NCBI GenBank assembly: GCA_000004985.1
Contig: GG738909.1
Source: Naegleria gruberi
Taxonomy: Eukaryota
Direction: 5' to 3' (one strand)
DNA length: 64,000 nt
The position numbers and the translations under genes are program-made. The stretch's first letter is position 1, and each line of letters begins with the position of its first letter. This document shows positions 28,369-63,926 of this stretch, piece by piece. Under the pieces are notes generated by a model. It did not search any database and was not told where the DNA came from. It worked only from the letters and a program-made list of their open reading frames with translations.

Positions 28369-31300
28369 TTATTTCTTTTTGGAAGGATTTGTGTGAACTG
28401 AACGTTCATGTCTTCTCAAGTTGGAACAAGTAGTAAATGTCTTTCCACAACCTTCAACATTGCAAACGTATGGTCGTTCTCCTGTGTGAATTCTCATGTG
28501 AGTTTGTAAATCAGAACGACGAACAAACTTCTTGTTACATCCCTCAAATGTGCAAGTGTAAGGTTTGTTGCCAGAGTGAAGTCTCAAGTGGCGTTTAAGA
28601 TTGGCAAATTGGGCAAACTCCTTTCCACAAGCATCACATACATATTCACCTTTTGAGTTTTTGGTAGCATTCTCCTTTGTAACTCCTTTAGACAATCCTA
28701 CTTCATCATCATCGTCATCATCCAACTCAGCCAACTCGTCTTCAAGTGTTGAAGAGCTATTGACAAAGTGATTAATAGACATGGTCTCATTACTACTAGA
28801 ATCAATATTCAACCTTAACAGGTGAGTTCTTGTTGTTGTGGTTGCTGTACTTGGTGTTGATTGACCTTGTGAAGATATGGATGGTGAGTAATTTGGTGGA
28901 TTAAGCAAACTAGTATTCATGGCATTGGTAATGTTAGTAGCCAACAATTGTCTTGGACTTGTTGGTGCATTATATTGTGGCTGTTGTTGTTGCTGTTGTT
29001 CGAGCAATGCATTAGAGTGATAGGATAAATCCAATTGTTGTTGTGGTTGTTGATTGAACTGCATGTTTTGTGGAATATTTTGTTGAAGATTTTGCATGTT
29101 TTGCATCTTGAATCCATTGTTGTTAATGACATTATAGTTCATATTACCATTTTGAATATAGTTTGGTGTTTGCAAAATATTTTGTTGTTGAGGGTAGAAA
29201 TTAAGCTGCATTTGTTGGAGAGTATTATTATTGACATATTGGTTATTGAACTGTTGATTATTAAATTGATTTGTGACTGGATTTTGAAATTGATTAAAAT
29301 TGATGAATTGTTGTTGATTGTTTTGATTGTTTTGATTGTTTTGACTGTTTTGATTTACAAAAATGGTATGAGATTGAGGAATTTGGACATTAGTATTGTT
29401 AATTATTGGCTGTTGTTGAACTTGTTGGAGTTGTTGTGGATTGGTGAGGAGTTGAGTATAGCTTTCATCTTCGTTGGTAAGAGAAAGATTGCTCAAACTT
29501 CTATCAATATTCATAGTGTAATCATCTTGTTGATTGGAAACGATTGGAACGTTGGCAGGTTGAGAAAATTGTTGTTGGACTGTTGGCTGCTGTGTAAATT
29601 GTTGGAATTGCATTTGATTAAACAGAGCATTTTGCTGATAAAGATTTTGCTCTTGTTGTGATACTTGACTGTTTTGACCATTATTCGAAATGACAGAATT
29701 CCTCTTGAATACTTTTCCAAAAAATCCAAAAAGTTTGTTCTTGCCATTCGACTTTTCATCTTCACCTTGTTGAACTGGTGACTGTCTATTGTTTTGTTGG
29801 GAAAATTGTTGAAGATTATGGAAAGTTTGTAAATGTGGATTGTTCATATTGTTAGCTACATTCATAGATCTCTGTAACTGGTTATTGTTATATGGTACAT
29901 TTGTGGTGGAATTGATAAGATCATGAGAATTGAATTGTTCAAGGTTAGGTTGTTGCTGAGCTGCTTGATTGTGTTGTTGTTGAATAATTTGATTCATGTA
30001 AAGATGAGGACTCATTGGATAATCTTTCTGTTTCTTTTCTACGACATAATTGTCTCTTGGTTTTCTCTTTCTTTTGGTACCATGATCTTCCTCTTGTTCT
30101 ACCTCACGTGCTGAATATTCCGAATAACTAGATGATGTAATTTCAGATTCTTCAAATGAGCGAGAATAAGAGTTGTTGTTCTCTCTCAATAATTGTTGAA
30201 GTTGAGAAATTTGTTGGGCATTAACAGCATGTGGATCAGTGAGAGGGCTTGGTGATATTAAACTTCCAGTTGAAAATCTTCTTGAATCATTGGAATACTT
30301 GGTACCAAAATTTTCCTCTCTTGGTAAACTAGGTTCAATAATATCTAGCCCACCTCCTTCTTCAATATTATTCAAAATTGATCCACCAAATGAGGGAGTT
30401 ATCATCGATCCAAGAGAGAAGCGATGTCTTAAATTTGGAGTGAAACAATCGTTTTGTGTATCATCTGCACTGCTACCGTATGTGTATGCCATTGAGTTTT
30501 TCATTGGAGTGTGACTACTATTATTATTTTCCAAACTATTATTAATATTTAAGAATTTAGATTCTTTTCCAATTGGTTTTCCTTTTTCAGATGTATTATC
30601 TTGTTCGGTTGGAGGTGGTTTAACAATATTAATCAAAGGTTCAGGTTGTACTGTTTTTTGCTCTTTAGTTATCATTATTGGAATTGTTGGTTTTTCCTGA
30701 ACAGGAAGAGGTGGCTGATCATAGGAATCAATTCCTGGAAGCTTTTGATCATCTGCATTCATGTCCTCTTTGATTCTCTGGTATAGAGAAATACTATTAT
30801 TAAAGAGTAATTCACTAGAGTCGCCTGCTGTGAGGAGACATTTTGAGGTTCCAGACAATCTCAACTCTTGATTTTCTCCAAAACTATAACTCGAAGCATG
30901 CAACAATGATCCAAAGTTTGATAAATTTCCACTACTAGCATCCATACGATTGTAACTACTTCCTGGTTTGAGATTGGAGTCACCACTCTCACCAAAATGA
31001 TTTGGAATTAAAATATTACTCAATGATGGTGTATTCATGCTGCTCACTACTTCATCATCGTCATCATCTATGGTCGAACCACTTGGCACTGAAGTTGACA
31101 ACTTTTTTTGACGGTTAATATTGAGATAAATATTGTCAGAATCAGAAAATTCCATTGGTGAAGGTAAATTTGCTCCAATAGTCATTAACTGTAAAAAAGA
31201 TTGTCAAAATGATAGACGAAAGATCAATACTTACTGGTGTGCTCAGAAATTTTCTAGTCAATGCAAAAATTCCAGTTGCAATTAATGATGACCTAACATC

Positions 31301-32530
31301 ATCAATTCTCAACTTGGAAGTAATAACTGGACCTTTAGGGAACGGAGAACTGGAAAATATTGCACTCGGATTAATATTGTCACCAATTGGAGGAGATGAA
31401 GAAAATGATGACCAAACAGTTGAATTTGTTGATGTTCCCAAACTATTATTCACATTCTTTCTATTATCTATTCCAATAGGTGAATTTTTGATAAAATGTG
31501 GACTCTTCTTTGGAATAACAACATTCTCTTTCGCAATCGGTTGAGTAGAAGTACTTTGGTTGATCTGTTGTTGTGGCTGCTGATTTCTAGGAGATAAATT
31601 AAATGTAGTCGATGATGGTGAAGTCACCTGATGAGGCATTGAAGGAATTGGTTGTTGAGTATTTCGAGGAGAAACTCCACTATTCTTCTTTGAATGGGAT
31701 CGATGTCTCTCATAGGCAATCATTTGATTATTTGGAGAAACTCCAGCCGATGATGATTGATTCAGTGATGATAAACCTCCTTGTGATGTACCTCCACCTG
31801 AACCAGCAGGTGAAACAGGTGATGTAGAATTTGATGAGTTATTATTACTATTATTATTCATAAATAATTGAAATGAAGGCAATCCTCTATAGGATGAGGG
31901 TGCAATATGATCATGATGACTCTGACTACTCTCATCATCAATTAATTTTGATTTACTTTGAGTGGGTGGCAATCCCGATTGAACCAAATTAGTTCCTTGA
32001 TTATTATTATTAACATTACCAACATTATTAATTGTTAAATTATTAGCACTATTAGCTCTTGAAATATTATAAGGACCACTCGTGCTTGATGTTGTTACAT
32101 ATTGTTGAAGTTGTGGTGATGATATTGGGTTGTTTTTGTTGTAATTTTGATTGGCGGGAAAAGTTGTCGAAGAAACAAGAGAAAAATTGTGATGATGATT
32201 AACACCGACTCGCATGAAGGTTTCTTCCGTTGTGGTTGCCGTGTTGTTGTTATTAGTATTATTATTTGATGCAACAACAGAGGTGTTACTTGATGATGAC
32301 GTCGGATATTGGTGATGGTAATTGGGAGGCTGGTAATTATAATGATGATGATTATTGTGATGGTGATGATTATCTAGAGTTGTTGATTGTTGTTGCTCTA
32401 ACAACAGGTTGCCTTTATTGTTGGTTGTCGTCATTGGACAAAAACCACAGGCGAGTAGAGGTTTGTTGGTGAGTTGATCTGGTAATGGTGATGGAAACAA
32501 GATTAAAGGAGTTTTTTTCTTGAATGTCAA
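28369..32530 (-). CDS. Large C2H2 zinc-finger protein of about 1370 aa: three C-terminal C2H2 fingers, and the remainder N/Q/S-rich low complexity. Two exons: 32530..31235 and 31188..28369.
   Basis: C-terminus: YVCDACGKEFAQFANLKRHLRLHSGNKPYTCTFEGCNKKFVRRSDLQTHMRIHTGERPYVCNVEGCGKTFTTCSNLRRHERSVH. The 462-aa and 938-aa track ORFs are joined in phase 0 by a 46-nt intron (GTAAGTATTGATC...TTTTTTACAG, 31234..31189). The upstream ORF's read-through stop lies inside the intron. Confidence 0.7.
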
Positions 32531-37089: not shown

Positions 37090-39816
37090 ATGCAAATGCT
37101 TCACATTTTGATAATAAGCGTTTTCCTCACGTTGTTGACACCAGCCATATGTCAATTTATTCCACCTGATATTGAAGTCAAACCTATTATTACTGGCCTA
37201 AAGGGACCCTCTTCACTCTTTTACCAACACGACAGTCTCTTCATCCTAGCAACTAATCAACAAATTCTACTCAAGACAGACTTTCAATCAAAGCCAAACA
37301 TTATTCTTGGCATTAACAACACTTTTGGATACAATGGAGATGGAAAACTTGCAAAGGACACCACTTTAAGTAATCCTCACGGTTTACATGTGAATGGCTC
37401 GTTCATTTATATTCCAGATAAATGGAGTCAGCGCTTGAGAATGGTCAACAAGGAAACAATGATTGTTCAAACAATTGCTGGAAATGGAATCTGTGGTTTC
37501 AGTGGTGATGGACAAAAAGTTGGAGTGCCAAATACACAATTGTGTAATCCACAAGGAGTTTTTGTGGAGAAAAATGAGATTTATATTGCAGATACTTTCA
37601 ACAATAGAATTAGAAAGATAGATTCGAATAATTTTCTTTCGACTGTTGTAGGGTCTAGCTCAATTGGTGGGTTTTCAGGGGATGGAGGTCTAGCAACAAA
37701 CGCCAAACTCTTTAGACCTGAATCTGTATTTGTGTATATGAATCAAGGCCAAACTGATATATTGATTGCCGACACTTTTAATAATAGAATCAGATTAGTC
37801 AAGAATGGTATAACCTCAACAATAGCAGGCGGAAATACCCAAGGATACAATGGAGATGGTATTCTTGCTAAAGATGCGTATCTATGTCAACCTAGCTCTG
37901 TATTTGTTACAACAGTTGGTGAAAGTCTTATTGCTGATTATTGTAATCACAAAATTAGAAGAATTTTCACAAATGGAACGATAACTAGTTTACCAATACA
38001 GGTCAGATATCCAAAATCCATTTTTCTTGATCAAACAAATGGCAATCTTTACATCTCTGAATTGGTTGATGGGACAGTTCAACAAGTGACATTTTACTGT
38101 AAAGAAGGATACAAATTGAATGATTTTCTTGTATGTGAACCTGTTTGCCAACAATCATGCAATACGAAAGGTAAATGTTTGGCTCCTGATGTTTGTGAAT
38201 GTCAGGACAGATACTATGGTGAGTTCTGTGAGGAGTTTACATGTTTTGGAATCTCAAAGGATCATCCAATGGTTTGTTCTGGACATGGATCTTGTATTTC
38301 TCCTGATTCATGTGAATGTGAAGTTAATTACTTTAACAGTAACTGCTCAGCAACTTCTTGCTTTGGAAAGAACTCAACCGAGCCATCTGTTTGCAATTCA
38401 CATGGTAAATGCACTTTATTCAACACATGTAAATGTGAATTCAACAAATATGGTGGCAATGAGTGTGAAATTCCTCTATGCAATGGAAAAAACTCTTCAG
38501 ATCCCAATGCATGCTCTGGTAATGGATTCTGTAGCACTGTCGTTTCTCCCGCTTCATGCATTTGCACTCGAGATATGAGTGGAGCATATGTAGGATCTGA
38601 TTGTCAATACCCAACCTGTATTTCAATCCCCTCTTACGAACCGAGAGTTTGCAGTGGAAATGGTCGTTGCTATGGATTTAATTTGTGTGAATGCAAAGAA
38701 GGATACGAAGGACTGTTTTGTGAATCAGTTACATGTGGAACTGGTTGCAAGATAGCTGCTTCAATTCCTGCGAGCGTTGTAGTCGGAGTTTGTGGTGTTA
38801 TTAGTTTGGTTTTGTTTCTGACGAGAACGAAACTGAAAGAATTTGCTAAAAAGCTCACATATACTGAACTTAAAGATATAGAGATAGTACCTTATCAACA
38901 TTTCTACATTGCTACAGAAGATGAAAAATACGAATACAAACTCAAAAGAATATTAGGAAAGGGAGGATTTGGTAAAATTTATGTTTTTGATGAGATTAGT
39001 GATGGGCAAACCATTGAAGTTGCAGTGAAAATCGTTGAGTCAGTTGATATGTCTGTTCTTAATGAGCCTACAACTATGAGTAGGTTACAACATACCCATA
39101 TTGTACCTATTCGTCGTTTTACAATTGTTGGTGATGGAAAGTATACTTGTTTAATTATGCCACTGTATCTCTGTGATTTGAGAAAGTGGTCTCAAAGCTC
39201 ATTGATGACCATTGAACTGATTATTGAAATTGTTAAGCAAACTGCCTTCAATATCTGCACAATATGAATATGGTCCATAGAGATCTGAAACCAGAAAACA
39301 TACTAGTTGAATCTCCAAATCCTTCACAGGATACGATCATTGATATATCCTCATTCCACTTGCGTGTTGGCGATTGGGGATCAGCCAGATTCGAATCTGT
39401 TGAGACAAGCAATGGTTTCACAGCACAGTACTGCTCACCAGAACATTTTCAAGAAGGAATAACTTCCTGCAACAAGAGTGATATTTGGAGTCTTGGATGT
39501 ATTCTCTATCAATTACTCTCATCAGATTACGAATCGAAACTAAATGTAGTGAAACAAAAAACTCAAAGTGATGAAGACGATAAGGAAATTAGGGAAACAG
39601 TAAGGGGAATGACCAAACTGGATGATTCATTCAAGCTTAATTCCATGTGTGATTTAATGCTAAATATGATCAAGTTCAACCCAGAGGAAAGGTAAGTTTG
39701 CTTTGAATCTAATAATCTTAATCATAATGGATAGAATATCTGCTGATGAAATATTGCACAGATTGAGTACCATTAATAATCAGTCAATGGATATAGCTCA
39801 GAATTCTGGCAATTAA
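37090..39816 (+). CDS. Receptor-like Ser/Thr protein kinase. Layout: signal peptide, NHL beta-propeller, 7-8 EGF/tenascin-type Cys repeats, TM, kinase. The catalytic domain is interrupted by a -1 frameshift near 39250. The final small exon 39735..39816 follows a 43-nt intron.
   Basis: Signal MQMLHILIISVFLTLLTPAIC. NHL units (FNNRIRKIDS..., ADTFNNRIRLV..., YCNHKIRRI). EGF-like CxxxGxCxxxxxCxC repeats. TM VVGVCGVISLVLFLT. Kinase motifs LGKGGFGKIY..VAVKIV. The frame then changes between ...LIIEIVKQTA and LQYLHNMNMVHRDLKPENILV..DWGSA..., which are two overlapping track ORFs (37090..39267 and 39264..39695). Then ...FNPEER|GTAAGT..ATAG|ISADEILHRL. Confidence 0.75.
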
Positions 39817-41161: not shown

Positions 41162-41193
41162 ATAATCTAGAAGAAAGTTCCTAAGGATGAAAT

Positions 41194-42176
41194 TTAATGT
41201 TTATGATCCAATTCGAATATGTAAAAGTCATAAACTGGTTTGAAACCAAACTTTTCATAAATTCCAATTCCCATTTCAGTTGCTTCTAAAACCATTTTCG
41301 TGTAACCTAATTGTTTGGCCATGTCTATCATTGAAACCATGAGAATGGTTGCAAATCCTTGGTTTCTGTGTCCATCACGAGTTGCCAAATGATTAATAGA
41401 AGCAACATGTTTTCCCATCACTAATTTTCCACAAGCAACTATTTCCACTTGTCCATTCGAAAGTTTTTGCTTAATTCCAACAGTGAAACTTTTCACAGAC
41501 GAATCTGGAGCAACTGTCGAAGTATCATTTCTAATAATTTCCTTCAAATTATCAGAAATTTGTGGAACACCACTAAATGCATCGGATTGACAAGTCCAAA
41601 ACTGAACCATTTCCTCTGGACTTTTCATTTCTACCAATTCGAATGATTTCTTCTCATTTTCACAAATCTTTCGTCCAGAAAATATTGGAATTGACGAGTA
41701 TTCCATATTTTCCACCATCCATCTTCTCTTTTCCTGATAATATTCAGTCAAATCTTGAATTTGTAAAAGCATGACAGTTTGCATTGTCAAGCTAGAAAAG
41801 CATTCTTTCAAATTCATCTTTTCAAGCTAGAAAAGCATTCTTTCAAATTCATCTTTTTGTAAATGTAAGTGGAGCCAAATTTCAATCGTTCTTGAACTTT
41901 TTCACTCCACAGCAATTGGTATTCTTGTAAGAGAGTCAAATTTTCACTTGTGGCCATATTAATCTTGCAATAATAAAACTGTGGAGTGCCATTGAGTCCT
42001 AAATTTGAAATCCTCGTGGCTGTGTCCATCACATCCTTGGTGTATCCACCAAAAACCTCCAGATACTCCAATCCTACCAATTCAAAGTGACTCATCGTGG
42101 CGTGAGAAGTCGTAAACTCTGCAAAACTATCCTGCACCATACTCATGAGTGCATTCTCTCCTTCCAAACTTGCCAT
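41194..42176 (-). pseudogene. GNAT-family N-acetyltransferase gene split into two ORFs by a frameshifting 35-bp perfect tandem duplication
   Basis: Downstream ORF (41194..41817) carries the GNAT acetyl-CoA motif RNQGFATILMVSMIDMAKQLGYTKMVLEATEMGIGIYEKFGF. The upstream ORF (41814..42176) ends ...YIYKKMNLKECFSSLKR*. The downstream ORF begins MNLKECFSSLTMQTV, because the segment is duplicated. Deleting one copy restores a single ORF of about 315 aa. Confidence 0.6.
41787..41856. repeat. Perfect 2 x 35-bp tandem duplication (tcaagctagaaaagcattctttcaaattcatcttt) inside the GNAT gene
   Basis: Direct reading of 41787-41821 versus 41822-41856. 35 is not a multiple of 3, so the duplication frameshifts the reading frame. 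Confidence 0.85.
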
Positions 42177-43436
42177 TTTCGTGTTTTAAATTTTCAAACT
42201 ATTGTGAGCGGTATTATTAATATTTGTTACATAAAAAAACAATATTTTGCAAATCTTATATGTTGTGGGCTATGAAGCAGTTTCTAGCACAGTGCAAGTT
42301 ACTCGTTTTTTTTGAATCAAAAAAAGAATGCACTAGACGGAGTATTTAATGTACAAATAAGGATGTGATATGAGAAAGAGGAATGGACTAATAAGGACGT
42401 CAGGCAAAGAGAGGTTTTGGTTCAAGATTGGTTGAGGCACTGACAATATAAATTGAAATTTGGTTATTAATGTCTCTTGCATCGTAAAGACCTGAGAGAC
42501 GATGTCAGTCTACAACCATTAAGTTTAGGGTGGATGTTAAGTGGTTGGTTGGACTGAGTCTGTCTGTGGTATTTCCTGGTTAACAGTGAAGCTTGTAACA
42601 AATTGAGTTCCACTACAAATTAACAGCAAGCTTGTGACTTGGCTTGAAATTGAAATTCCCAAGTTGAGAGGAATCTTAGTTATCAAAACATGGAAACGAA
42701 TCTTGTTAAGGTTAAATTAACTGTCGCATGCGGCATACATTTCATCCCTACACTTGCACTGAAAAGATTTTTTTGTCAATACCTTAAGTTGACCAATTTT
42801 GTTTTTTTCAACATCTTTGTAAAAGACCTTTCGTCTACAGTTTAGGTGAACCTTGGACTACGGTTCCTACTACTGTTTTTTGACCATATTGGCAGAACTA
42901 ACACCATACTTGTTAAGCCACAAGATATAGTTGTGCGGTGCCAAATATTGAAATTTGTCAAAAGTCACAAAATTCTTCTTATTGAAATAGTGCTGAACAC
43001 CACAAATATTTTGGAAAACACCATTTCCACGTAAATATTAATTACCTTTTCAATTTTTATGTATCCATATTTCTTTCCATGTCAACATCCCTATTTATAA
43101 AATATTAAAATATTGAAGAGTGACAGTTCACATAGCCATGTAAATTGTAAATTGAAACTATTTTAAATTCTGTAGTTGTACTGTAGAAATACTGTAGTGT
43201 TAGTAGTTGGCTTACAATTAACTACATTATTACTATGCTTATTAATATTTTTTTCAAGTTGACCAAATTTTGACAAGTATTATATTAGTTTCTCAACACT
43301 ATTACAAGATAAACAAATAGTTTACTAATAGTTTCTTATAAAACTATTCTAAACATTTCATTCCATAAAATTGCAAGTCAACCAAGTGTTAAAAATTTCA
43401 ATTTAACAATTTTATTGTACAAGTTTTTTGTTGAAT

Positions 43437-53104: not shown

Positions 53105-56100
53105 ATGGATATGCGTGGATTGTCAGTGTTCATTTCCGACATTAGAAAATGTTAGTATATTGTTTTTTTGTTGGTTTTTTAACTGGCTTTTGGATATGAT
53201 GTTTTTGTTGTTGTTGTTTAAATATTCTTGTCATTATTAATTATAATCGATCCTGATCGTATTGTTGTATTATAATTACTTCCTTTTCAACAATACCAAT
53301 ACGATATTTAACAATGATTTAACTTGTGGATTATACACTCAACAATAATAATACAATAACAAAATAATAACAACAACAAATACTTGCGCGATGATACAAT
53401 AATTGCTCGCTGCTCTATCCAACACCTCTATTGTTGGTCGTCATCGATAATAACAACAACAAAATTTTTATTAATATTACACAATAATTAACAGCAACTA
53501 CAAAGGAAGAAGAACAATCTAAAGTAGAAAAAGAATTAGCCAAGATCAGAGGTAAATTCAAGAATGGTGGAGCTCTTAAAGGATATGATCGTAAGAAGTA
53601 TATCTGTAAATTGCTCTATATTTACATGCTTGGTTATGAAATTGAATTTGGTCACATTGAAGCCGTCAATTTGTTGGCTTCACCAAATTACTCTGAAAAA
53701 CATATGGGTTATCTTGCTTGTTCATTGTTGTTGAACGAAAATCACGAAATGGTTACACTTATTACCCAATGTATGAAGAATGATTTGAATAGCAAAAATC
53801 CAAATGATCAATGTTTGGCACTTACAGCTATTGCCAACATTGGTGGTAAGGAACAAGCTGAAGCTCTTGCTCACGACGTACAAAAATTGCTCATCTCCAA
53901 CGAAACCAAATTGACTGTCAGAAAAAAGGCTGCTCTTACTCTCTTGAATTTGCATAGAAAATACCCAGAAAGTTTGCCTCCAGATTCTTGGTCCGAAAAG
54001 GTTATTGCTCTTATCAATGGTAGAGATCTTGGTGTTATTACCAGTGTTATGAGTTTAATTTTGGGACTTGCCGAAAAGAATCCAGAAGCTTATCAAGATG
54101 CAGTTTCAAAGACTGCTCGTTTATTGATGAAGTTGGTTTTGAACAGAGAATATTCTACATCATATTTGTACTACAAGATTGCTGCCCCATGGTTGCAAGT
54201 TAAAGCTTTCCAATTACTCCAATACTACCCAGTTCCAGAAGATAAGGCCATCTATGACTCTATCATCCAAGCTATTGAAAAAGTTATTCAAATTGCTAAG
54301 AAATCAAAGGAAACTACATCAAAGAGTGTGAGTCAAATTAATGCTGCTCACAGTGTTCTCTTCGAAGCAATGAATCTTGCTATTCACTACGATTCATCAA
54401 AGACAATCTTGGTGACAGCTTGTTCCATGTTAACTAAATATTTGAAGGATAGAGAAACTAACTTGCGTTATCTTGCTCTTGATACTCTCTCACGTATGGC
54501 TTACTCTCAATTCGATGAAGTTTTGGCTACTATCAGAAAGGAACAAGATACCATTTTACTTGCTTTGAAGGATCCTGATATCAGTATTAGAAGAAGAGCT
54601 CTCGATTTGTTGTACAGTATGTGTAACAGAGATAATGCTGGTGAAATTGTTGGTGAATTGCTCAACTATTTGCCACTTTCCGACTATGCTATCAGAGAAG
54701 AATTGGTTTTGAAGATTGCCATTCTTGCTGAAAAGTTCTCTGTTGATCTCACTTGGTATGTCGATGTTGTTCTCAATTTGATTTCCCAAGCTGGTGACTT
54801 TGTTGCTGATGATATTTGGCACAGAGTTATCCAAATCGTCACAAACAAGGGTGAAGAATTACAAAAGTACACTGCTCAAACTGTTTTCAGTGCTGTTTCT
54901 TCTCCAGCTGCTCATGAAACTTGTGTCAAGATTTCTGGTTACATTTTCGGTGAATTTGGTGACTTGATTGCTGATAATCCTCAAACTGATGCTTTTTCTC
55001 AATATGAATTGATCTTGTCCAAGTTCAACTTGTGTTCAACCACTACTAAGTGTCATTTGTTCAACTCTTTGATGAAGTTGTACAATTTGTATCCTGATAA
55101 CCAAGGACTCCGTGATAATATTAAGGATGTTTTCGAAAAGCACACCAATTCTTTCGATGCTGAATTGCAACAAAGATCTGCTGAATATTTGGCTCTCATC
55201 AATACTGGTGATGAAGATCTTATTCAAGCTGTCATGGATAACATGCCAATGTATCCAGAACGTGACTCTCAAGTCATTAAGAGATTGATGGAAAAAGAAG
55301 CTGCCAAGAAGCGTGGTGCTACTGGTACAGGAAGAGAAAACAACGAAGACGAAGAAGAAGAAAATCCAGATTTGGATGTTCAAGTACCTGAAACCAAACA
55401 AGGTGGAAATGATTTGTTGGATATGCTCGATATGGGTGGTTCTTCAAATAACAATAATGCTGGAGGATATAGTATGGATGACATTTTGGGAGGATTTGGT
55501 GGACCAGTTTCTCAACCACAACCAACTAATAATGGAGGAGGTTTGAGCATGGACGATATTTTGGGAGGATTTGGTGGACCAGTTACTCAACCACCTGTTC
55601 AACAACCACCACAAAACAATGTTGGTGATTTCTTTGGAGGAGGTGTTAACATTGCTGCTCAAGCTGCCAACATGGGTAAGCAAAAGAAGGAACAAAGAGA
55701 TACTACCGGATTCAACTTTGATGATGTTGTAGTTGCTAACAGAGATAATGCTCTTGAACAAAACGAACAAGTCCATCAAGACGCTGCTGTTAAGCATCAA
55801 GTTTTGCTCAAGTCTAACGAAGGTGTTGCCATTGAAGACGAACATTTGCAAGTCAAGATTAAGACTGAATATCACGGATGTAAGGGTAGACTTATTCTCC
55901 TCTATGGTAACAAGACTACTAATCCATTGACTCAATTCAAGGTTCACATTCTCGTTCCAAAGGAATTGGAAGCTCAAATTTCCAAGGTTCCACCAATGAT
56001 TTCACCAAAGACTCAAGTCCAACAATACGTTGACTTGGTTGCTAAGGGCCCATTCAGCCAATTGACTGATTTGGATTTGTACTTTGAAGCTAATCGTAGA

Positions 56101-56502
56101 TATTACAGATTCAACATCAAGTTGCCAATCGTTCCACACAAGTTTGTTGAACCATTGGTCATCCAAGGTGCTGAAAACTTCTTTAAACAATGGCACGCAA
56201 TTGGAAAGGAACAAGAAGTCCAAAAGATTTTCCCATGCACTCCTGTATATTCTGATGTAAATGCCTGTGCTAAGGTTTTGTCTGAAGGTTTCCGTTTGGC
56301 CATTTTGACTGGTATTGACAATCCAAGTAATATTGTTGCTGCTGGTTCTTTCTTCTATGATCCTGTTGGTAAGGTTAACGTTTTATTACGTCTTGAATAC
56401 AATGCTCCAAAGCAAGCTTACAGATTAACTGTCAAGGCTCAAGATGCCACTATTGCTCAACAAGTTTTCAATTACATCTTACAAGAACTCACCTCCCAAT
56501 AA
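53105..56502 (+). CDS. ap2a1: AP-2 complex subunit alpha (alpha-adaptin). Two exons: 53105..53150 and 53495..56502.
   Basis: Exon 1 is MDMRGLSVFISDIRK, followed by donor GTTAGT, a 344-nt intron and acceptor TTAACAG|. Exon 2 begins STTKEEEQSKVEKELAKIRGKFKNGGALKGYDRKKYICKLLYIYMLGYEIEFGHIEAVNLL, collinear with human AP2A ([55 protein letters not shown]). HEAT/ARM trunk, G/Q/P-rich hinge, C-terminal appendage. Confidence 0.85.
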
Positions 56503-56677: not shown

Positions 56678-59181
56678 TTACTCCAAAGTATTATTTGGAG
56701 ATAGGTAGGCTTCTTGATTGATTGTCAAGGTAATATTATCATTGTTTCTTGTTGGTGTTTTGGGTTCATTCAATGTTTCAAGATTTGCAGAATTTTTCTT
56801 TTGTAAAATGTTTAAACTTGTTCTCAACATGTCAGTGAAGGATGGAACAAGAGCTGGAGTGTGATGTTTCTCATGCAACATGTAAGCAATACATTCACCT
56901 TTTCCTTTCACATTTAAATGTCTTTCTTCAAAAGTGAAACCCAAATCATAAACTCTTTCGTAGGTTGATCTGGAAATTTGAATTCTTCCTGGAATTGAAT
57001 TAGATTCCATTCTTGAAGCTGTATTAATTGTATCTCCCCATAAATCCTATTTAATTAAATATTAAGATGAAGTATTGAAAATGTACATGTTAAAATGTTA
57101 AAATGTTGAAATTAAAAACATACATATGCAAATTTCTTCCTCCCAATAACACCTGCAATAACACTTCCAGTATTAATACCAACACGAATATTAATTTGTT
57201 CAGATGGATGTTTTCCTGATTTTGAATTAAATCTTTGTAAAACATCAAATGTATCAATGGAAAATCTCAAAATTCTTTCAGGATGATCTGATTGTGCATT
57301 CAATCCATGTAATCCACCCACACAAAAATATGAATCTCCAATCGTTTTAATCTTTTCCAAATTATACTTGTCTGTCAAATCATCAAATCCAATTACAATT
57401 TCATTCAACATTTGAACCAATTCAGATGCTTGAATTCCAGTACTCAATTTTGTAAATCCCACCATGTCACTAAAAAAACATGAAACATCATTGAATTTCT
57501 CTGCAATATAAGTTTCTCCTGATTTCAATTTACTTGCTACTGCACTTGGTAAAATATTCAATAATAATTCTTCAGAATGTTTCTTTTCTTCTGTCAATAA
57601 TGAATTATGTTTCTTCTCTGTTGTAATATCCTTAATGAAACAAGTTACAACACTTTGAGAATTGTGAAGAGTGGCAAAAATATTGACACGTGATGGGAAG
57701 CTTGTTTGATTCTTTCTGATACATTCCAATTCAATAGAATCTCCTTTCGAATCACCTCTTGCTGCATTCACCAACATTTCATCAATGAGGTTTTTAATTT
57801 TCGATTGCTCATTCTTTTCAAATAATTGATACAATGATCTTCCAATCGTTTCTGTTTGATTGTATCCAAATATCTTTTGAGCTGCTGGATTGAATATTTC
57901 AATATCAACCTTCTCTCCACTGCACATCACTGCTCCATCTACAGATGCATTCAAAATGCTTCGAACTTTTGAGTCACCTTCCCCTAAATTTGACTTCTTT
58001 TTGAGGAGGGAAGACAATGTATTTGGAATATGGTGATGTACAATGTAATTCTTGATATTTTCATTAGAATCCATTAACTCAATTGATAAATAGTTAAAAA
58101 GAAGACGAAGTTGTTGGACAGAGTTGGCATGTTGATGTAAGGACCAACGAATGGCAAGTGAAATGGAGATAATTGCAATAAATCCAACGAAACTGAATGC
58201 GTAGACAAGTTCTTCATCAGTTATGGCAGCATCTTTTGAAAAAACAGTAGAAAAATCAATCAATTGATCTGAAATGGCTCTGGAAAGATGGAAATGTTTA
58301 ACAAACGTTTCGAACAGCTTCAAGTTATTAATTTTTCCGTTTTCATCCATTAGCTCCATTATTTCATTGGAAATTGTGACGAAATTTGTAATCATATCAT
58401 CAATTCCCATAACGCACGAATGATTACCATCTTCTTTAAACATGTCAGTCAATGTACAATTTTCCTGACCTGCCACGAGTAAATTTACATCATCAAATTT
58501 TCCAAGTATGGTATTTTCTGGATTCTCTCCAATGGATGTTCCATAAATACATAAATTCCAATGGTTTTTCAAGTCACTTGATTTTTCAGTAACATAATGC
58601 TTTGGATTGGATGTAAAATTGTATAAATTAGAAACTCTGAAGAAAGCATCATTGTTGGAGCGAAATCCAGATATAATATACTTCTCAGTGATAAAATTAC
58701 TCAAATATTGAATATCTTCAAAAGTTTGGAATGATTCTTTCATAATAACATAGGATCCGTAACATTGATTCACATTTTGTAAAGTTTCCAATAAGAATAG
58801 CCCACAACAAACTGAAACAATTAGAGAGAGAATAAGAGCCAATACAACTACAACACTCCTTGGATATTTCCAAACACTCTTGACTGGATGAGTTGATGTA
58901 TCATCATTGACTACCTTACTCAATTCATGGAATAATCTTCCTGCATCATTTTTTGAAACATTCTTCTCAATGAGAAGAACTATCTTTGTTATAACAGATA
59001 GATCTAACTTAGAGTAGAATACATAAAGAGATGTATAGAGGAAGTAGACTGTCACAATGATGGAAAAGTAAATGATAAAAGTATTAGTAATTAGTTGAGT
59101 TTCATCCTTTGAACTGGAAACAAAATTCACACAAAAATCAGAATAGGCAGTAACCATTCTCTCGGAATTAAAGTACTGCAC
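56678..59181 (-). CDS. ACG-like sensor nucleotidyl cyclase. Layout: TM, extracellular domain of about 230 aa (CHASE-like), TM, PAS-like region, class III adenylyl/guanylyl cyclase catalytic domain. Last intron 57123..57047. Probably continuous with the 59208..62087 ORF through a 41-nt intron.
   Basis: Cyclase motifs FSDMVGFTKLS, KIKTIGDSYFCVGGL, INIRVGINTGSVIAGVIGRKKFAY|GTATGT..AAATAG|DLWGDTINTASRMES. PAS-like IFNPAAQKIFGYNQTETIGRSLYQLF. Two TM helices flank a Cys-containing extracellular segment of about 230 aa. Confidence 0.75.
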
Positions 59182-59207
59182 ATGATTAGAATAAAACTCT
59201 AGAACAA

Positions 59208-62087
59208 CTAACTTACCAATAACATAAAGGGATAACTTGACAGAAAACTCTCTAGGTCTGCTAGTCCAAATTTAGAAATAGTTTCAGAGTGTGTATAGAA
59301 TAAATTTGTAATATCTGCAATAGTGGTATTAGTAGTGGTCGAAATGTTATAAACCTTATCGATTTCTGTTGCTGGCCATGAAGTTGGTAAATTGAAAGTG
59401 TAATAAATTTCATGATATTCAGAGTACATTTCCTGTGTGAATTTTCCGTCATGAACCAATTCTCGCACTGATTTCAAAATGTCCCTGTAAGTATTAATGT
59501 GTTCTAACATTTCTTCATGATAATGTTCCAAAGAAGTATATCCATACTTGGACATGACATTCATCCATTCAACCATTGAGTGATTGTACAAATATGTGAT
59601 TGGTTGAAAAGCTCTCATACTAGACATGATCTGAACAGAGGCGCCAACTGGAGCACAAGCTGTTTCCACTATTTTAACAGTGCCTGAAATATAGGATGAG
59701 AATGAAACACTCAAAGCCAAACTAACACTCAAAAACAAGATGGAAAATAAGACAAATAGAGAGAAGAGGAAAACTTGGAGAGTGTGTCTGTGTGGAAGGC
59801 TCAGTGAAGTTCTGAATACGTTTTCCTTTCTAAATTCTGGATTATTCTCAATTCCATTGAATTCTGGATTGGTTTCTGCCTCTTTCTGATCGCCATAGAA
59901 TGAACTGCTCTCACTTCTAATGTCGTGTTCCTGGAGATGGATACCAATATTTGGGCCTTCTTGTGTTGGAACTATTCTGTTTTTAAACTTGGACTTTTGA
60001 TTCCTCTTCTTTCTTAATTGAGCATTTCTTTTGGTTTCTTCCTCTTCCAAACTTGATGCTTCAGCATACAGCTCTTGAGCAGCATCCTTATTAAACTTGA
60101 ATTCTTCAATGTATTTGGCAAAATTTCGTAATAAATTCTTGTCATTCTTATAAATTGCCAACATGTTCAAAAACTTGGTTTCACATTCATTGGAAATAAT
60201 TCCCATTCTTACAATGATTGATTCAATCTTATCCCTCAAGACACATTCCTGGAGCATTTCCTTCCAGAACATTCTGTGAAGGGCTTTCAATTCATTTTGT
60301 CTCCTTTCGAGAATGAACATTACTTCACTCATTTCTTCAGTATTTTTGGCATTTGGATTAATTTGATGAACTATAATGTCAACTTCCTTCTGTTTCAAAT
60401 AGATGAGGAATCTATACCATGTATTTGGTCTCTTTTTTATGGCTCTCCTTAAAATTCCTTTGGAAAATGTTGTGGCATTGACATCATTTACGAGACAATT
60501 TGATGCTATAGAACTTGATAAGAGAAGAATATCATTATCGAGTTGTGAGTTGAGTGATGATATACCTCTAACAAGAGAAAGAGACATTTTCAGATTGCTC
60601 AACATATTTGGATTGCTGGAAAGAGTTGGATCTTCTTCATCTGTTGGAATCTTTTCCTTAATGGAGAATTTCAAAAAAAGTTTCAGATAATTCAACTTTT
60701 TGGATTCTAGAAAGTATTGGTAAATATTAATGGAATCCTTCTCGATTGCCTTTTCCAGTAAATCAGGGAAACCATTATTAGATTCATTTCTAATACCTTC
60801 AATTACAATAAATCGAACACTTCTAATCAAAATTCTTGTAATCGCCTCCATTACCATCATTCCAACAAAAAAAGAGATGATAATCATTGCCAAAGTCATT
60901 CCAGCTAGACCAATTCCCAGCACATTATCAACTGACTTGTAAATTGCCGAAAGATTTGGATTATTTACAACGCCACTAATTAGAGAACCAAAACTTGAGA
61001 AGATCCTTGCAGATAACACTCCAACCATAATGGAATTCTCAAATCTCTTAAAATATGGAACGTTTTTCGAAAAACCAATCATTAAACCAATCGAAACTAT
61101 CAAATGCACAATCGATCTGATAAATGCATACTGAGGAGGAATCACATAATGTGAAAGAATTTGGAATTGAGTACAAATCATTGTTCCAATAAGGAAAATT
61201 GGATGATCAGAAGTGAATGGAGAAAAGTGTTGGGGATGACAATTCGTCACAATTAATAGAGAAAAACATGATAATATCATTTGAATGATTATTCCAATAA
61301 TCATGATGGCCATGAAGGCAATATTAATAGTTGAATAACATTCAATGTTCTGGTTTGAATATTGTAAAAAACGGTTGAGAACTGAGACAGAACCAAGATT
61401 ACAATCAAGTGGTGTTGTCAATAGGTAAACAGCTGGAAGAGAAACGAGTAGAAAAAGTTTCGAACCAAGGGCCAAACCTTTCTTTGTCCATTTCAAATAT
61501 TGAGAAGTTGTTTTGTAAGCATACACACTCCAAACCAAGTAAACAATAAATAACAGCTCTACAGCTATAACCACAAACGCTAGAGCCAACGAACCTATAT
61601 AAGGTAACCTTTCGAATGATAAAGTCAAAGGATAGTTCAATACAGAAAAAACCCATGTTCCCCACTCTCCGTATTTCATTTCCATTCCAAGATTTGGCAA
61701 GAATATACCAATCCAAAATACATAAGTATGAAATAGTAAACTAATCAAATAGGAATATAGACCTTCTCTTAATTGTGCCTCTTGCATGAAGAATATAAAA
61801 TCCATAAGTTGATTTCTGAGCTTGATTCCAATCGAAATCTCAGAGCCAGTAATATCTGTTGTTGAATATTTGGAATGTTGGGACGAGAAGGATACATTTG
61901 ATGAGCTAGAGGTATGTTGTCCATGAACTGAGGGAATATTCAGATAACTTGTTGGAGTCGTCTGGTTTCTAGCAACGGTTGACCCACGACGTGAAGTACT
62001 AGCAATAGAGATTGAATCCTCTTCTATGGCAATATTGTTGTTGTTAGTATTATTCAATTGATTTATACTAGCATTGGGATGCAACAT
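59208..62087 (-). CDS. Large multipass membrane protein: about 9 N-terminal TM helices, a cytosolic region of about 330 aa, then further TM and an extracellular segment. The C-terminal end is most likely spliced (59216..59176 intron) onto the ACG-like cyclase ORF downstream.
   Basis: The ORF ends ...SYPFMLL followed by GTAAGTTAG (the stop is inside a consensus donor). A CAG acceptor sits 41 nt later, in frame with YFNSERMVTAYSDF... of the next ORF. Hydrophobic helix clusters at residues about 100-440 and about 750-775. No family recognised. Confidence 0.55.
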   Translation of the reverse strand: MLHPNASINQLNNTNNNNIAIEEDSISIASTSRRGSTVARNQTTPTSYLNIPSVHGQHTSSSSNVSFSSQHSKYSTTDITGSEISIGIKLRNQLMDFIFFMQEAQLREGLYSYLISLLFHTYVFWIGIFLPNLGMEMKYGEWGTWVFSVLNYPLTLSFERLPYIGSLALAFVVIAVELLFIVYLVWSVYAYKTTSQYLKWTKKGLALGSKLFLLVSLPAVYLLTTPLDCNLGSVSVLNRFLQYSNQNIECYSTINIAFMAIMIIGIIIQMILSCFSLLIVTNCHPQHFSPFTSDHPIFLIGTMICTQFQILSHYVIPPQYAFIRSIVHLIVSIGLMIGFSKNVPYFKRFENSIMVGVLSARIFSSFGSLISGVVNNPNLSAIYKSVDNVLGIGLAGMTLAMIIISFFVGMMVMEAITRILIRSVRFIVIEGIRNESNNGFPDLLEKAIEKDSINIYQYFLESKKLNYLKLFLKFSIKEKIPTDEEDPTLSSNPNMLSNLKMSLSLVRGISSLNSQLDNDILLLSSSIASNCLVNDVNATTFSKGILRRAIKKRPNTWYRFLIYLKQKEVDIIVHQINPNAKNTEEMSEVMFILERRQNELKALHRMFWKEMLQECVLRDKIESIIVRMGIISNECETKFLNMLAIYKNDKNLLRNFAKYIEEFKFNKDAAQELYAEASSLEEEETKRNAQLRKKRNQKSKFKNRIVPTQEGPNIGIHLQEHDIRSESSSFYGDQKEAETNPEFNGIENNPEFRKENVFRTSLSLPHRHTLQVFLFSLFVLFSILFLSVSLALSVSFSSYISGTVKIVETACAPVGASVQIMSSMRAFQPITYLYNHSMVEWMNVMSKYGYTSLEHYHEEMLEHINTYRDILKSVRELVHDGKFTQEMYSEYHEIYYTFNLPTSWPATEIDKVYNISTTTNTTIADITNLFYTHSETISKFGLADLESFLSSYPFMLLVS

Positions 62088-62563: not shown

Positions 62564-63926
62564 GTGGAGGAGTGTGATAAAATTTTCAAAGCAATAGATA
62601 AACCAAATTTATATCTTCTAACAACGTTTCTTAAAAAACCAATAGATATGCAAAGGAAAAGGGACTTGTGGAAGCAATTTGATAACATGATTCAGAAAAT
62701 GTCAATTCAACAAAAGAAAAAAACATCAATTCATATTTGTGGAATTTCATCATTAGGGAAATGTGCCAATACAATTTCCAATCGGCAATGGATTATTTCT
62801 ACTTGGTGAAGAGAAAATCTAGCTTTATTGGAGAAGTACACTTTGAATAATTTATTAAATTCGTGCAGTACTTTTGGAACGTGGGAGGCTGAGTTTATAT
62901 TTCGAAACATTGAGGCACGTGACAAGTTTCATTATTCCTGCTACATCAAAGCTGGATGCACCACAAAAGAATCTGCTTTAAAGCTGGAAGAATTAATTAT
63001 TAATAGTGGATTTTTCAATGATATAATTGTCCAAACAAGCCTCATTTCTATGTTCTCCAAGTGTGGGTTATTAGAAAGGTCTATTGAACTGTTCAACAGC
63101 ATGGAGAAGAAACCAACAGCAAGATGGAATGCAATGCTTTCCGCATACGCACATCACTCTCTTTACAATGAAGTACTACTGTTATTCAGCGAGATGGAGG
63201 AATCTTCAATTGAGACGGACAAGCAAACTTTTAGCTATGCTATTCTAGCCCTATCGAGTCTTGGAAAATCTCACTATCATGCACTAATCAAGGGATGTAT
63301 TAACAGTTCGAATTTCTCAAGCTTTGAATGTTTTAGAGCTGATGAAAAGAAAGCGAATTCCACTAAGCTCTCGAATATTTATATCACTCATGAATGAATG
63401 CATCAAAAGTGGTATTTTGTATGATGCAAAAGTTTTACATCAAGAAATTGTTGAAAATCTACCTTCTTTTTTGTCTGATCCCTTTCTGGTAGTGTCATTA
63501 ATTAATATGCTTGGTTGTTTCAATCAGTCCCAGGCAGTATTGGATGTTTTTGGTGGGTACAATGGACAAGATGTGGCCGTGTTAAATGTTACATTGTCAG
63601 CTCTTTACAAGGATGGTTTAATTCATAATGCTCTCAATCTATTCTATGAAAATACGAAAAATTACAAGTTTGATGAAAAAACATTTACAATTATTTTAAC
63701 AATGTGCAAAGACATGCAAAACGACGATAGTGTAAAGGGTCAACAATATTTTGAAATGATGAAACAATATGAAGTTGAACCAAATATCTTCCATTATACA
63801 TGTCTTATCAAGTGTTTTCTCTCAGAAAAGCAATTTGAAAGGGCTCTGGATATTCTCTTTGATATTCATTTGAAAGGAATTCTAATTGATGATGCTTGCT
63901 TTAACTCTTCCGGGGGGTCTCTTTAA
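62564..63926 (+). pseudogene. Plant-type PLS-class pentatricopeptide-repeat (PPR) protein gene, with an in-frame TGA (62807-62809) and a +1 frame change near 63300. Either disrupted or mis-assembled. The 3' end may continue past the last stop.
   Basis: PPR/PLS-like units: SLISMFSKCGLLERSIELFNSMEKKPTARWNAMLSAYAHHS, EVLLLFSEMEESSIETDKQTFSYAILALSSLG, ALNVLELMKRKRIPLSSRIFISLMNECIKSGILYDAKVLHQEIVEN, DVAVLNVTLSALYKDGLIHNALNLFYENTKNYKFDEKTFTIILTMCKD. Three track ORFs (62564..62809, 62828..63397 and 63324..63926) are separated by one stop and one frame change. Confidence 0.6.

What the first reader, a model, noticed from the sequence alone, without database searches (positions are those of the whole stretch)
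41194..42176. GNAT acetyltransferase gene broken by a perfect 35-bp tandem duplication that re-creates an internal ATG
Positions 41787-41821 and 41822-41856 are identical. Because 35 is not a multiple of 3, the upstream 120-aa ORF terminates 3 codons into the second copy. The duplicated segment contains ATGAATTTGAAAGAATGC, so the downstream 207-aa GNAT-motif ORF starts with the same MNLKECFSSL peptide. Removing one copy gives one clean ORF of about 315 aa. A perfect, non-decayed duplication means the event is very recent, polymorphic, or an assembly artefact. If it is real, the locus could still express the catalytic half from the duplicated start.
Basis: seen in the sequence. Interest (0 to 1): 0.55.

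Follow-up and report, generated by a model that had tools for sequence, protein, structure and literature searches.

The report
Acetyltransferase gene split by 35-bp duplication
In the Naegleria gruberi reference genome, a perfect 35-base tandem duplication frameshifts a two-domain GNAT acetyltransferase gene that is one ORF in its closest relative, so this is an ordinary young broken gene (or a sequence error), and the annotated 207-residue protein is only its tail.

Summary
Positions 41787-41821 and 41822-41856 are identical, and this is the highest-scoring perfect tandem repeat in the window. On the minus strand the duplication splits a gene into a 120-aa ORF and a 207-aa GNAT ORF. Deleting one copy gives a clean 315-aa ORF.

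The window is Naegleria gruberi NEG-M, and the 207-aa ORF is the annotated model NAEGRDRAFT_81661. The closest relative, N. fowleri FDP41_013262 (an intronless single ORF), aligns to residues 3-315 of the repaired protein in one frame. More distant paralogues in N. gruberi, N. lovaniensis and Willaertia also carry the N-terminal region and the GNAT domain in one protein. "Two naturally separate genes" is therefore refuted.

The extra copy is not an intron: it has no GT, and real introns in this window start with GTAAGT. There is also no ribosomal frameshift signal.

The most likely reading is a young loss-of-function allele (less than about 1.5-3% neutral divergence since the break). An error in the Sanger draft could not be excluded. 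No independent N. gruberi data were reachable, and two other genes in the window carry 1-nt frameshifts. Expression of the catalytic half is possible but unsupported, because its ATG is the 12th in the transcript.

Interest is low. The practical result is a corrected gene model.

The parts
41194..42176 (-). The whole disrupted gene. Ancestrally it was one intronless ORF of 315 codons encoding an N-terminal domain plus a C-terminal GNAT. As sequenced it is 983 nt with a +35 frameshift.
   Evidence: The repaired protein aligns over residues 3-315 to N. fowleri FDP41_013262 (BLASTP 1e-77). Both halves hit that gene in one frame by tblastn.
41814..42176 (-). ORF1: the 120-aa N-terminal fragment, made of 118 native residues, then K and R read out of frame, then a stop.
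   Evidence: It has no Pfam family. It matches N. fowleri locus L001 8211-8603 by tblastn at 1.5e-18. Conserved motifs include SFxEFT, NGTPQFYYxKIxMA, QEYxLL and ERLxFGSxYxY.
41194..41817 (-). ORF2: 207 aa, identical to the annotated model NAEGRDRAFT_81661 (XP_002671031.1 / EFC38287.1). It starts at native Met108, which lies in the second copy in the sense direction.
   Evidence: Pfam PF00583 scores 35 bits against a cut-off of 20.7.
41822..41856 (-). Copy 1 of the 35-nt unit in the direction of transcription (AAAGATGAATTTGAAAGAATGCTTTTCTAGCTTGA). ORF1 reads it in the native frame.
41787..41821 (-). Copy 2 of the 35-nt unit in the direction of transcription. ORF1 reads it out of frame and stops there. 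It also supplies the ATG of ORF2.
41814..41817 (-). The ATGA overlap, where the ORF1 stop (TGA, 41816-41814) overlaps the ORF2 start (ATG, 41817-41815). ORF2 lies in the -1 frame relative to ORF1.
41206..41667 (-). The predicted GNAT catalytic core (residues 159-312 of the repaired protein), which lies entirely within ORF2.
   Evidence: AlphaFold2 model with pTM 0.70; most of this segment is at pLDDT 63-91, with low-confidence stretches at 159-164 and 311-315. Pfam GNAT hits. PDB sequence hits confined to residues 200-310.
41350..41367 (-). The acetyl-CoA-binding motif A, R-N-Q-G-F-A (residues 259-264 of the repaired protein), which is intact.
   Evidence: Read directly from the sequence. G262 is invariant across the family alignment.

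Best explanation
This is a Naegleria gruberi gene for a two-domain acetyltransferase: a lineage-specific N-terminal region of about 150 residues followed by a C-terminal catalytic GNAT domain. Ancestrally it was one intronless 315-codon ORF. In the sequenced NEG-M genome it carries a real, evolutionarily very young 35-bp tandem duplication of codons 107-118.

Because 35 leaves a remainder of 2 when divided by 3, translation from the native start runs into a TGA after two out-of-frame codons. The product is a 120-residue fragment with no catalytic domain. The allele as sequenced is therefore a null or strong hypomorph, that is, an incipient pseudogene. It may be heterozygous, and the loss is probably tolerated because N. 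gruberi keeps intact paralogues.

The 207-aa ORF that the annotation calls a gene is simply what remains downstream of the break. It begins at native Met108 because that codon lies inside the duplicated segment.

Shown here: the duplication, the frameshift, the single-ORF ancestry, and the absence of intron or frameshift signals. Inferred: that the duplication exists in the organism and not only in the assembly, that the allele is non-functional, and that the duplication arose by replication slippage or end-joining repair.
For: Organism and gene model. The only close database hit is the 207-aa N. gruberi protein itself.

Single-ORF ancestry.
- A full HMMER search with the repaired protein finds N. 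fowleri FDP41_013262 (453 aa), which aligns to repaired residues 3-315 in one polypeptide.
- That gene is one uninterrupted ORF in two independent assemblies, L001 and L002.
- Both window ORFs hit it in the same frame, and its DNA at the homologous site is single-copy.
- Paralogues from N. gruberi (P0054, 310 aa), N. lovaniensis and Willaertia magna (310-411 aa) also combine the N-terminal region and the GNAT domain in one protein.
- The probability that 108 codons upstream are open by chance in the joining frame is about 1.5e-3.

Not an intron. The unit contains no GT, and every frame-restoring GT..AG pair has a weak donor. The two real introns seen in this window start with GTAAGT, and there is no GTA[AT]GT anywhere in 41100-42400 on the gene strand.

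Young. The copies are identical and there is no further stop or indel in 945 coding bases, which bounds neutral divergence since the break at about 1.4-3.2%.

Probably real.
- NEG-M was Sanger-sequenced (PMC9928731, Table 1), and from general knowledge such reads of about 700 nt span a 70-nt repeat.
- The window contains no N, so the site is not at a contig join.
- The unit is not a repeat family that could mislead an assembler.
Against: There is no independent N. gruberi sequence for the site. Exact-protein look-ups for both ORFs and both neighbouring genes found nothing. Two metagenome scans were empty. Only one N. gruberi genome is in the published genus comparison.

Two other genes in the same 64 kb are split by 1-nt frameshifts: a receptor-like kinase at about 39.24 kb and a PPR gene at about 63.3 kb. 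This shows that the draft consensus contains errors, or that the strain carries many broken genes.

Loss of function is inferred. No expression or protein data were available.

Only 1 nt of microhomology flanks the unit, so the mutational mechanism is not identified.
Confidence: 0.62

Rival explanations
1. The second copy is an assembly, cloning or consensus artefact. It does not exist in N. gruberi DNA, the real gene is an intact 315-codon ORF, and the 207-aa model is an annotation error caused by the artefact.
For: The copies are perfectly identical, and removing one restores the ORF perfectly. Two more genes in the window are broken by single-base frameshifts of the kind expected from draft consensus errors. 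The reference is a 2010-era Sanger draft with 1,977 contigs. No independent data confirm the duplication.
Against: A 35-nt duplication of unique sequence is not a base-calling error. The site lies inside gap-free sequence, with no N in the 64 kb, so it is not an unmerged contig overlap. The unit is not repeated elsewhere in the window, and there is no pre-existing tandem repeat that could shift a read alignment. From general knowledge, a clone-specific artefact would have to outvote the other reads in a multi-fold-coverage Sanger shotgun.
Confidence: 0.3
2. The duplication is real but the locus still makes functional enzyme. The possible routes are: translation of ORF2 (the complete GNAT core) from an internal transcript; termination-reinitiation at the ATGA overlap; -1 ribosomal frameshifting that fuses ORF1 and ORF2; or frequent precise reversion of the tandem duplication, which would make it a reversible switch.
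For: ORF2 contains the whole predicted GNAT core plus the confident strand and helix that precede it. The ORF1 stop overlaps the ORF2 start as ATGA, and ORF2 is in the -1 frame. From general knowledge, perfect tandem duplications can be lost by slippage or recombination.
Against: The ORF2 ATG is the 12th ATG of the transcript. There is no X XXY YYZ slippery heptamer in the only window where a shift could work (C TTG AAA AGA TGA, read). The RNA around and downstream of that point folds no better than shuffles (z = -1.26). ORF2 would lack the first half of the N-terminal region, which every relative retains. The ATGA overlap follows trivially from AAG ATG AAT being read one base out of frame.
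Confidence: 0.05
3. The two ORFs are naturally separate genes, or two exons separated by a short intron, and the repeat is incidental.
For: The reference annotation models only the 207-aa ORF as a gene. Short introns of about 46 nt do exist in this genome.
Against: The closest relative and all paralogues encode both parts in a single ORF. The one short relative, P0003 at 185 aa, is merely cut by the end of its 995-bp contig. There is no GT inside the unit and no GTAAGT-type donor anywhere in the gene. The break falls inside a duplicated block of coding sequence, and removing that block restores the homologous alignment exactly.
Confidence: 0.02

Closest known systems
Naegleria fowleri FDP41_013262 (XP_044565492.1, 453 aa, 'N-acetyltransferase domain-containing protein'), the closest homologue and the likely orthologue
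   Same: It has the same architecture and is collinear over residues 3-315 of the repaired protein (BLASTP 1e-77, with 46% identity in the C-terminal half). It shares the N-terminal motifs and the C-terminal ...YIFELDHK tail, and it is intronless.
   Different: It is intact. It has a low-complexity N-terminal extension of about 73 aa and several insertions, one of them about 30 aa long just before the duplicated site. The flanking genes are not syntenic, which fits the low N. fowleri / N. gruberi synteny reported in PMC6125883. Orthology therefore rests on best-hit similarity only.
Heterolobosean family of 'N-terminal region + GNAT' proteins (N. gruberi XP_002673207.1 'acetyltransferase', N. 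lovaniensis C9374_003002 and C9374_004971, Willaertia magna ABK040_000116 and ABK040_003244)
   Same: These proteins are 310-411 aa with a conserved N-terminal helix (xSxFExN), a YLFLPD-type strand and a C-terminal GNAT domain. All members hit PF00583 and PF13508, and most hit FR47 PF08445.
   Different: They are only 20-26% identical to the window protein. Some carry a C-terminal hydrophobic tail that the window protein lacks. No function is known for any of them.
Tandem (two-domain) GNAT acetyltransferases with solved structures: Legionella VipF (6wqc), 3frm, 4ius, the clavulanate-pathway tandem GNAT (2wpw), MAB_4324 (7q3a), C. acetobutylicum glucosamine N-acetyltransferase (5kf1) and N-myristoyltransferases
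   Same: These are the best Foldseek matches to the model of the repaired protein. The alignments span 226-285 columns, so they extend beyond the C-terminal GNAT domain. If the resemblance holds, the break removes half of a degenerate N-terminal GNAT-like lobe that in such enzymes helps form the substrate site (general knowledge).
   Different: TM-scores are only 0.34-0.41 and rmsd is 6-12 Å. Residues 27-90 of the model have pLDDT below 50. There is no sequence-level match to any N-terminal GNAT. The resemblance is suggestive and is not a classification.
Glucosamine-6-phosphate N-acetyltransferase (GNA1), the name UniRef gives the 207-aa model
   Same: Both have the GNAT fold. Yeast GNA1 aligns to the C-terminal domain of the model (TM normalised to target 0.62-0.66).
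   Different: Sequence similarity to GNA1 structures is insignificant (E = 0.13-0.87) and confined to the roughly 55-residue acetyl-CoA motif region. GNA1 chains are single-domain proteins of 159-190 aa, whereas the ancestral protein here has 315 aa and two regions. The name should be treated as an automatic label.
Genes inactivated by short frameshifting tandem duplications (unprocessed pseudogenes or null alleles)
   Same: There is a perfect head-to-tail duplication of coding sequence whose length is not a multiple of 3, followed by an immediate premature stop, with an otherwise intact ORF.
   Different: There is nothing unusual here. Only 1 nt of junction microhomology is present, so this is not the microhomology-mediated class.

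Membership tests
GNAT superfamily (Pfam PF00583 Acetyltransf_1) | A profile match above the curated gathering score. | tested here: met
   The score is 35.0 bits against a cut-off of 20.7 for ORF2, and 33.9 bits for the repaired protein. All 9 family members match.
GNAT superfamily (Pfam PF00583 Acetyltransf_1) | The acetyl-CoA-binding motif A, (Q/R)-x-x-G-x-(G/A), on the beta4-alpha3 element. | tested here: met
   R259-N-Q-G-F-A264 is encoded at 41350-41367. G262 is invariant in the family alignment. The model shows strand 247-254 followed by helix 263-277.
GNAT superfamily (Pfam PF00583 Acetyltransf_1) | Acetyl-transfer activity. | not testable with these tools
   This needs an enzyme assay, and the substrate is unknown.
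Glucosamine-6-phosphate N-acetyltransferase (GNA1) | Significant full-domain sequence similarity to characterised GNA1 enzymes. | tested here: not met
   phmmer against the PDB gives E = 0.13-0.87 for the GNA1 chains 1i12, 1i1d, 1i21, 2huz, 4ag7 and 2vez. Only residues of about 248-306 are matched.
Glucosamine-6-phosphate N-acetyltransferase (GNA1) | A single-domain architecture of about 150-190 aa. | tested here: not met
   The ancestral protein is 315 aa, and its N-terminal region is conserved in all relatives.
Tandem-GNAT (two-lobed) acetyltransferases | An N-terminal domain that itself adopts a GNAT-like fold packed against the catalytic GNAT. | tested here: inconclusive
   The top Foldseek PDB hits are tandem GNATs (E about 2e-7), but TM-scores are 0.34-0.41 and rmsd is 6-12 Å. 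Residues 27-90 are modelled at pLDDT below 50.
Gene disrupted by a frameshifting tandem duplication (null allele or young pseudogene) | Homology to an intact single gene on both sides of the lesion, in one frame once the lesion is removed. | tested here: met
Gene disrupted by a frameshifting tandem duplication (null allele or young pseudogene) | The lesion is not bypassed by splicing. | tested here: met
   There is no GT in the unit and no GTAAGT-type donor in the gene, whereas real introns in this window use GTAAGT. No cDNA was available, so this is sequence-level evidence only.
Gene disrupted by a frameshifting tandem duplication (null allele or young pseudogene) | The lesion is present in the organism's DNA and not only in the assembly. 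| not testable with these tools
   No reads and no second N. gruberi assembly were reachable.
Programmed -1 ribosomal frameshift site | A slippery heptamer X XXY YYZ in the ORF overlap. | tested here: not met
   The only permissive window is C TTG AAA AGA TGA, which contains no such heptamer (sequence).
Programmed -1 ribosomal frameshift site | A stable stimulatory RNA structure downstream. | tested here: not met
   The 131-nt fold has MFE -22.5 kcal/mol and z = -1.26; 23 of 200 shuffles fold at least as well.
Microhomology-mediated tandem duplication | A direct microhomology of several bases (about 4 or more) flanking the duplicated segment in the ancestral sequence. | tested here: not met
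   Period-35 identity extends for only 36 nt, which means 1 nt (T) of microhomology.

The most novel reading that the evidence does not exclude
The duplication is real and the locus is not dead. In the first version, the perfect tandem repeat collapses back to one copy at appreciable frequency, so the gene behaves as a reversible on/off (or heterozygous) allele in clonal amoeba populations. In the second version, ribosomes terminating at the ATGA overlap reinitiate and produce a free-standing catalytic GNAT domain with altered substrate scope.
Probability: 0.04. Interest if true: 0.5.

Novelty: new member of a known kind. Interest (0 to 1): 0.15.

Why it matters
The value is mainly curatorial. 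The reference protein NAEGRDRAFT_81661 (207 aa, named 'glucosamine 6-phosphate N-acetyltransferase' in UniRef) is the tail of a broken 315-codon gene, and the name is not supported. Anyone using the N. gruberi proteome for orthology or metabolic reconstruction should treat it either as a pseudogene or null allele, or as a mis-assembled gene.

The window holds three frame-broken genes in 64 kb. This suggests that the 2010 Sanger draft contains consensus indels, or that the NEG-M laboratory strain carries a load of recent disabling mutations. Resequencing would settle this cheaply.

The analysis also delineates a small family of 'N-terminal region + GNAT' proteins whose close full-length relatives were all heterolobosean and whose function is unknown. 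None of this would surprise a specialist.

Tried and rejected
1. Intron hypothesis. I enumerated all GT..AG pairs that restore the frame. There were 155, as expected by chance in AT-rich sequence. None has a GTAAGT-type donor, and none lies within a copy. Rejected.

2. Programmed frameshift. There is no slippery heptamer and no significant RNA structure. Rejected.

3. Mobile-element footprint or repeat family. The unit occurs only twice in the window. Rejected.

4. Hairpin-promoted slippage. The repeat finder shows that the copy junction forms a near-palindrome, CTTTTCAAG/CTAGAAAAG, and that an AAAAG/CTTTT inverted pair exists in the ancestral unit. These are short and AT-rich, so I did not consider them evidence for a mechanism.

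5. Independent evidence for either allele. Exact look-ups of ORF1, ORF2, the Kelch neighbour and the upstream neighbour found nothing on record. A metagenome scan with the repeat unit gave 0 hits. A metagenome scan with the orthologue alignment gave no relatives. The word-indexed protein search returned only the 207-aa model.

6. Synteny with N. fowleri, to prove orthology. No flanking gene matched.

7. The N. gruberi genome paper and its review could not be read. The sequencing technology was taken from PMC9928731 instead.

8. Sequence search of the PDB for the N-terminal region gave nothing meaningful.

Full report
OBSERVATION

Positions 41787-41821 and 41822-41856 are identical. This is shown by the direct read, by Tandem Repeats Finder (period 35, 2.0 copies, 100% match, score 142) and by a string comparison. 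Period-35 identity extends over 36 nt, so the duplicated block is flanked by a single base (T) of microhomology. The unit occurs only twice in the window even with 3 mismatches allowed, and never in 100 shuffles. A perfect 35-nt tandem repeat is expected about 3e-13 times by chance.

- ORF1 runs 42176..41814 and gives 120 aa ending ...KKMNLKECFSSLKR*.
- ORF2 runs 41817..41194 and gives 207 aa starting MNLKECFSSL.
- The ORF1 stop overlaps the ORF2 start as ATGA at 41817-41814.
- ORF2 is in the -1 frame relative to ORF1.

Deleting one copy yields an uninterrupted 315-aa ORF.

WHAT GENOME, WHAT GENE

The window is about 34% G+C. The only close hit of the repaired protein in the 5.8-billion-protein collection is a 207-aa 'predicted protein [Naegleria gruberi]' that is 100% identical to ORF2. 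Its accessions are XP_002671031.1 / EFC38287.1, locus NAEGRDRAFT_81661, on a 250-kb scaffold. UniRef names it 'glucosamine 6-phosphate N-acetyltransferase'. The reference annotation therefore models only the downstream ORF. ORF2 matches Pfam GNAT families (PF00583, 35 bits against a cut-off of 20.7), while ORF1 matches nothing.

IS THE UPSTREAM ORF PART OF THE SAME GENE? YES.

An index-free HMMER search of 1.84 billion representatives with the repaired protein found N. fowleri FDP41_013262 (P0002, 453 aa). BLASTP aligns it to repaired residues 3-315 in one polypeptide, with E = 1e-77. The N-terminal motifs are clearly conserved: SFxEFT, NGTPQFYYxKIxMA, QEYxLL and ERLxFGSxYxY. The alignment runs straight through the duplicated codons, with KKMNL-KECFSSLTMQ aligned to KCMKIPREAYVGVTMQ.

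The N. fowleri gene is a single uninterrupted 1362-bp ORF in the GenBank assembly and in an independent Logan assembly (L001 and L002). Window ORF1 and ORF2 hit it by tblastn in the same frame, at 1.5e-18 and 4.6e-57. Its DNA at the homologous site is single-copy.

More distant relatives of 310-411 aa also combine the N-terminal region and the GNAT domain. They come from N. gruberi (XP_002673207.1), N. lovaniensis and Willaertia magna. The one short relative, P0003 (185 aa, from an environmental contig), is simply cut by the end of its 995-bp contig.

The chance that the 108 upstream codons are open in the joining frame is about 1.5e-3.

Flanking genes are not syntenic with N. fowleri. This is consistent with the published low synteny between the two species (PMC6125883). 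Orthology thus rests on best-hit similarity.

COULD THE CELL BYPASS THE BREAK?

Splicing. The 35-nt unit contains no GT. Many GT..AG pairs would restore the frame by chance, but none has a good donor. The two genuine short introns visible in this window, near 31.2 kb and 59.2 kb on the minus strand and each about 46 nt long, both start with GTAAGT. No GTA[AT]GT exists anywhere on the gene strand in 41100-42400.

Ribosomal frameshifting. A -1 shift would have to occur within C TTG AAA AGA TGA. That stretch holds no X XXY YYZ heptamer. The surrounding RNA folds no better than shuffles (z = -1.26).

Independent translation of ORF2. Its ATG is the 12th ATG of the transcript counted from the ORF1 start, so scanning ribosomes would rarely reach it. 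The ATGA overlap is a trivial consequence of reading AAG ATG AAT one base out of frame.

ORF2 does contain the entire predicted GNAT core, so residual activity cannot be excluded. Nothing in the sequence supports it, however.

STRUCTURE

I made an AlphaFold2 model of the repaired protein using the 9-sequence family alignment. It has pTM 0.70 and mean pLDDT 65. The features are:
- a long N-terminal helix at residues 2-28;
- a poorly modelled stretch at residues 27-90;
- a beta-hairpin at residues 102-127, with the duplicated residues 107-118 at its low-confidence turn;
- a confident helix at residues 133-146;
- a canonical GNAT core at residues 159-312, with an intact motif A (R259-N-Q-G-F-A264).

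The best Foldseek matches in the PDB are two-domain 'tandem GNAT' proteins: VipF, 3frm, 4ius, 2wpw, MAB_4324, C. acetobutylicum GlmA and the N-myristoyltransferases. They have E of about 2e-7 and alignments of 226-285 columns, but TM-scores of only 0.34-0.41 and rmsd of 6-12 Å. A degenerate N-terminal GNAT-like lobe is therefore plausible but not established.

Similarity to true GNA1 enzymes is insignificant and limited to the acetyl-CoA motif (E of 0.13 or worse). The UniRef name is not supported.

REAL MUTATION OR ARTEFACT?

This could not be settled. The evidence favouring a real duplication is:
- NEG-M was Sanger-sequenced (PMC9928731, Table 1), and reads of that type span a 70-nt repeat (general knowledge).
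- The window has no N, so the site is not at a contig join.
- The unit is unique sequence with no pre-existing repeat that could mislead an aligner.

The evidence favouring an artefact, or at least calling for caution, is:
- No independent N. gruberi data could be reached.
- The published genus comparison includes only one N. gruberi genome.
- Two other genes in the same 64 kb are split by single-base frameshifts.

The first of those two genes is an NHL/EGF receptor-like kinase at 37090-39695. Pkinase profile positions 1-107 lie in one ORF and positions 118-251 in the next, and a 1-nt insertion near 39235-39265 restores the ORF. The second is a PPR gene at 62828-63926, where a 1-nt deletion within 63285-63395 restores the ORF.

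My estimate is about 0.6-0.65 that the duplication is real and about 0.3 that it is an artefact.

AGE, IF REAL

Identity of the two copies bounds divergence only weakly, at d < about 4%. The absence of any further stop or indel in 945 coding bases gives a 95% bound of about 1.4-3.2% neutral divergence, depending on the assumed indel rate. This is a rough calculation that assumes neutrality after the break. The allele would be very young, and possibly heterozygous or specific to the laboratory strain.

MECHANISM COMMITTED TO

A replication-slippage or end-joining event duplicated codons 107-118. The +35 frameshift truncates the protein after 118 native residues, upstream of the catalytic domain. 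The allele is a null or strong hypomorph, tolerated because intact paralogues exist. The annotated 207-aa 'gene' is the remnant downstream ORF.

VERDICT

Biologically this is an ordinary broken gene or a draft-sequence error. It is useful mainly as a correction to a gene model and to an automatic functional name.

Noticed in passing
window 37090-39695 (+), break near 39235-39265: A receptor-like protein kinase (NHL and EGF repeats plus a kinase domain) is split into ORFs 37090..39267 and 39264..39695 by an apparent 1-nt deletion. Pkinase profile positions 1-107 end the first ORF, and positions 118-251 (starting with HRDLKPEN) begin the second. Inserting one base restores a single ORF. No intron signal is present.
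   Followed up: yes
window 62828-63926 (+), break within 63285-63395 (probably about 63300-63312): A PPR-repeat gene is split into two overlapping ORFs, 62828..63397 and 63324..63926. Deleting one base restores a single ORF, and there is no GTAAGT-type donor nearby. With the kinase and the GNAT gene, this makes three frame-broken genes in 64 kb, which suggests draft consensus indels or a load of recent disabling mutations in NEG-M.
   Followed up: partly
window about 31140-31190 (-) and about 59180-59210 (-): Two short spliceosomal introns of about 46 nt join large ORF pairs: 31142..32530 with 28369..31185, and 59208..62087 with 57112..59181. Both have GTAAGT donors and pyrimidine-rich ...CAG acceptors. 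I used them here as the local standard for what an N. gruberi intron looks like.
   Followed up: partly
window 40271-41161 (+): A Kelch-repeat beta-propeller gene (PF24681, E = 3e-37) converges on the GNAT gene, with only 32 bp between the two stop codons. Its listed start is a TTG, so the true start or an upstream exon was not determined.
   Followed up: no
proteins P0006, P0008, P0010, P0015, P0054 (N. lovaniensis, Willaertia magna, N. gruberi); window gene 41194-42176: The broken gene belongs to a small family of 310-450-aa proteins with a conserved N-terminal region that no Pfam model covers, followed by a GNAT domain. The close full-length relatives named by their sources were all heterolobosean. 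Two members (P0006 and P0008) end in a hydrophobic tail that looks like a membrane anchor. One unnamed 255-aa protein from a metagenome (P0025) aligns from residue 99 onward.
   Followed up: partly
window 55453-55594: An imperfect 75-bp tandem repeat (1.9 copies, 86% match) lies in the region of the 53611..56502 (+) ORF. Because 75 is a multiple of 3 it would preserve the frame, in contrast to the 35-bp case.
   Followed up: no
window 41818-41835: The junction between the two copies creates an 18-nt near-palindrome, CTTTTCAAG/CTAGAAAAG, with 8 of 9 arm positions complementary. It is short and AT-rich, so its relevance to how the duplication arose, or to its stability, is unknown.
   Followed up: no
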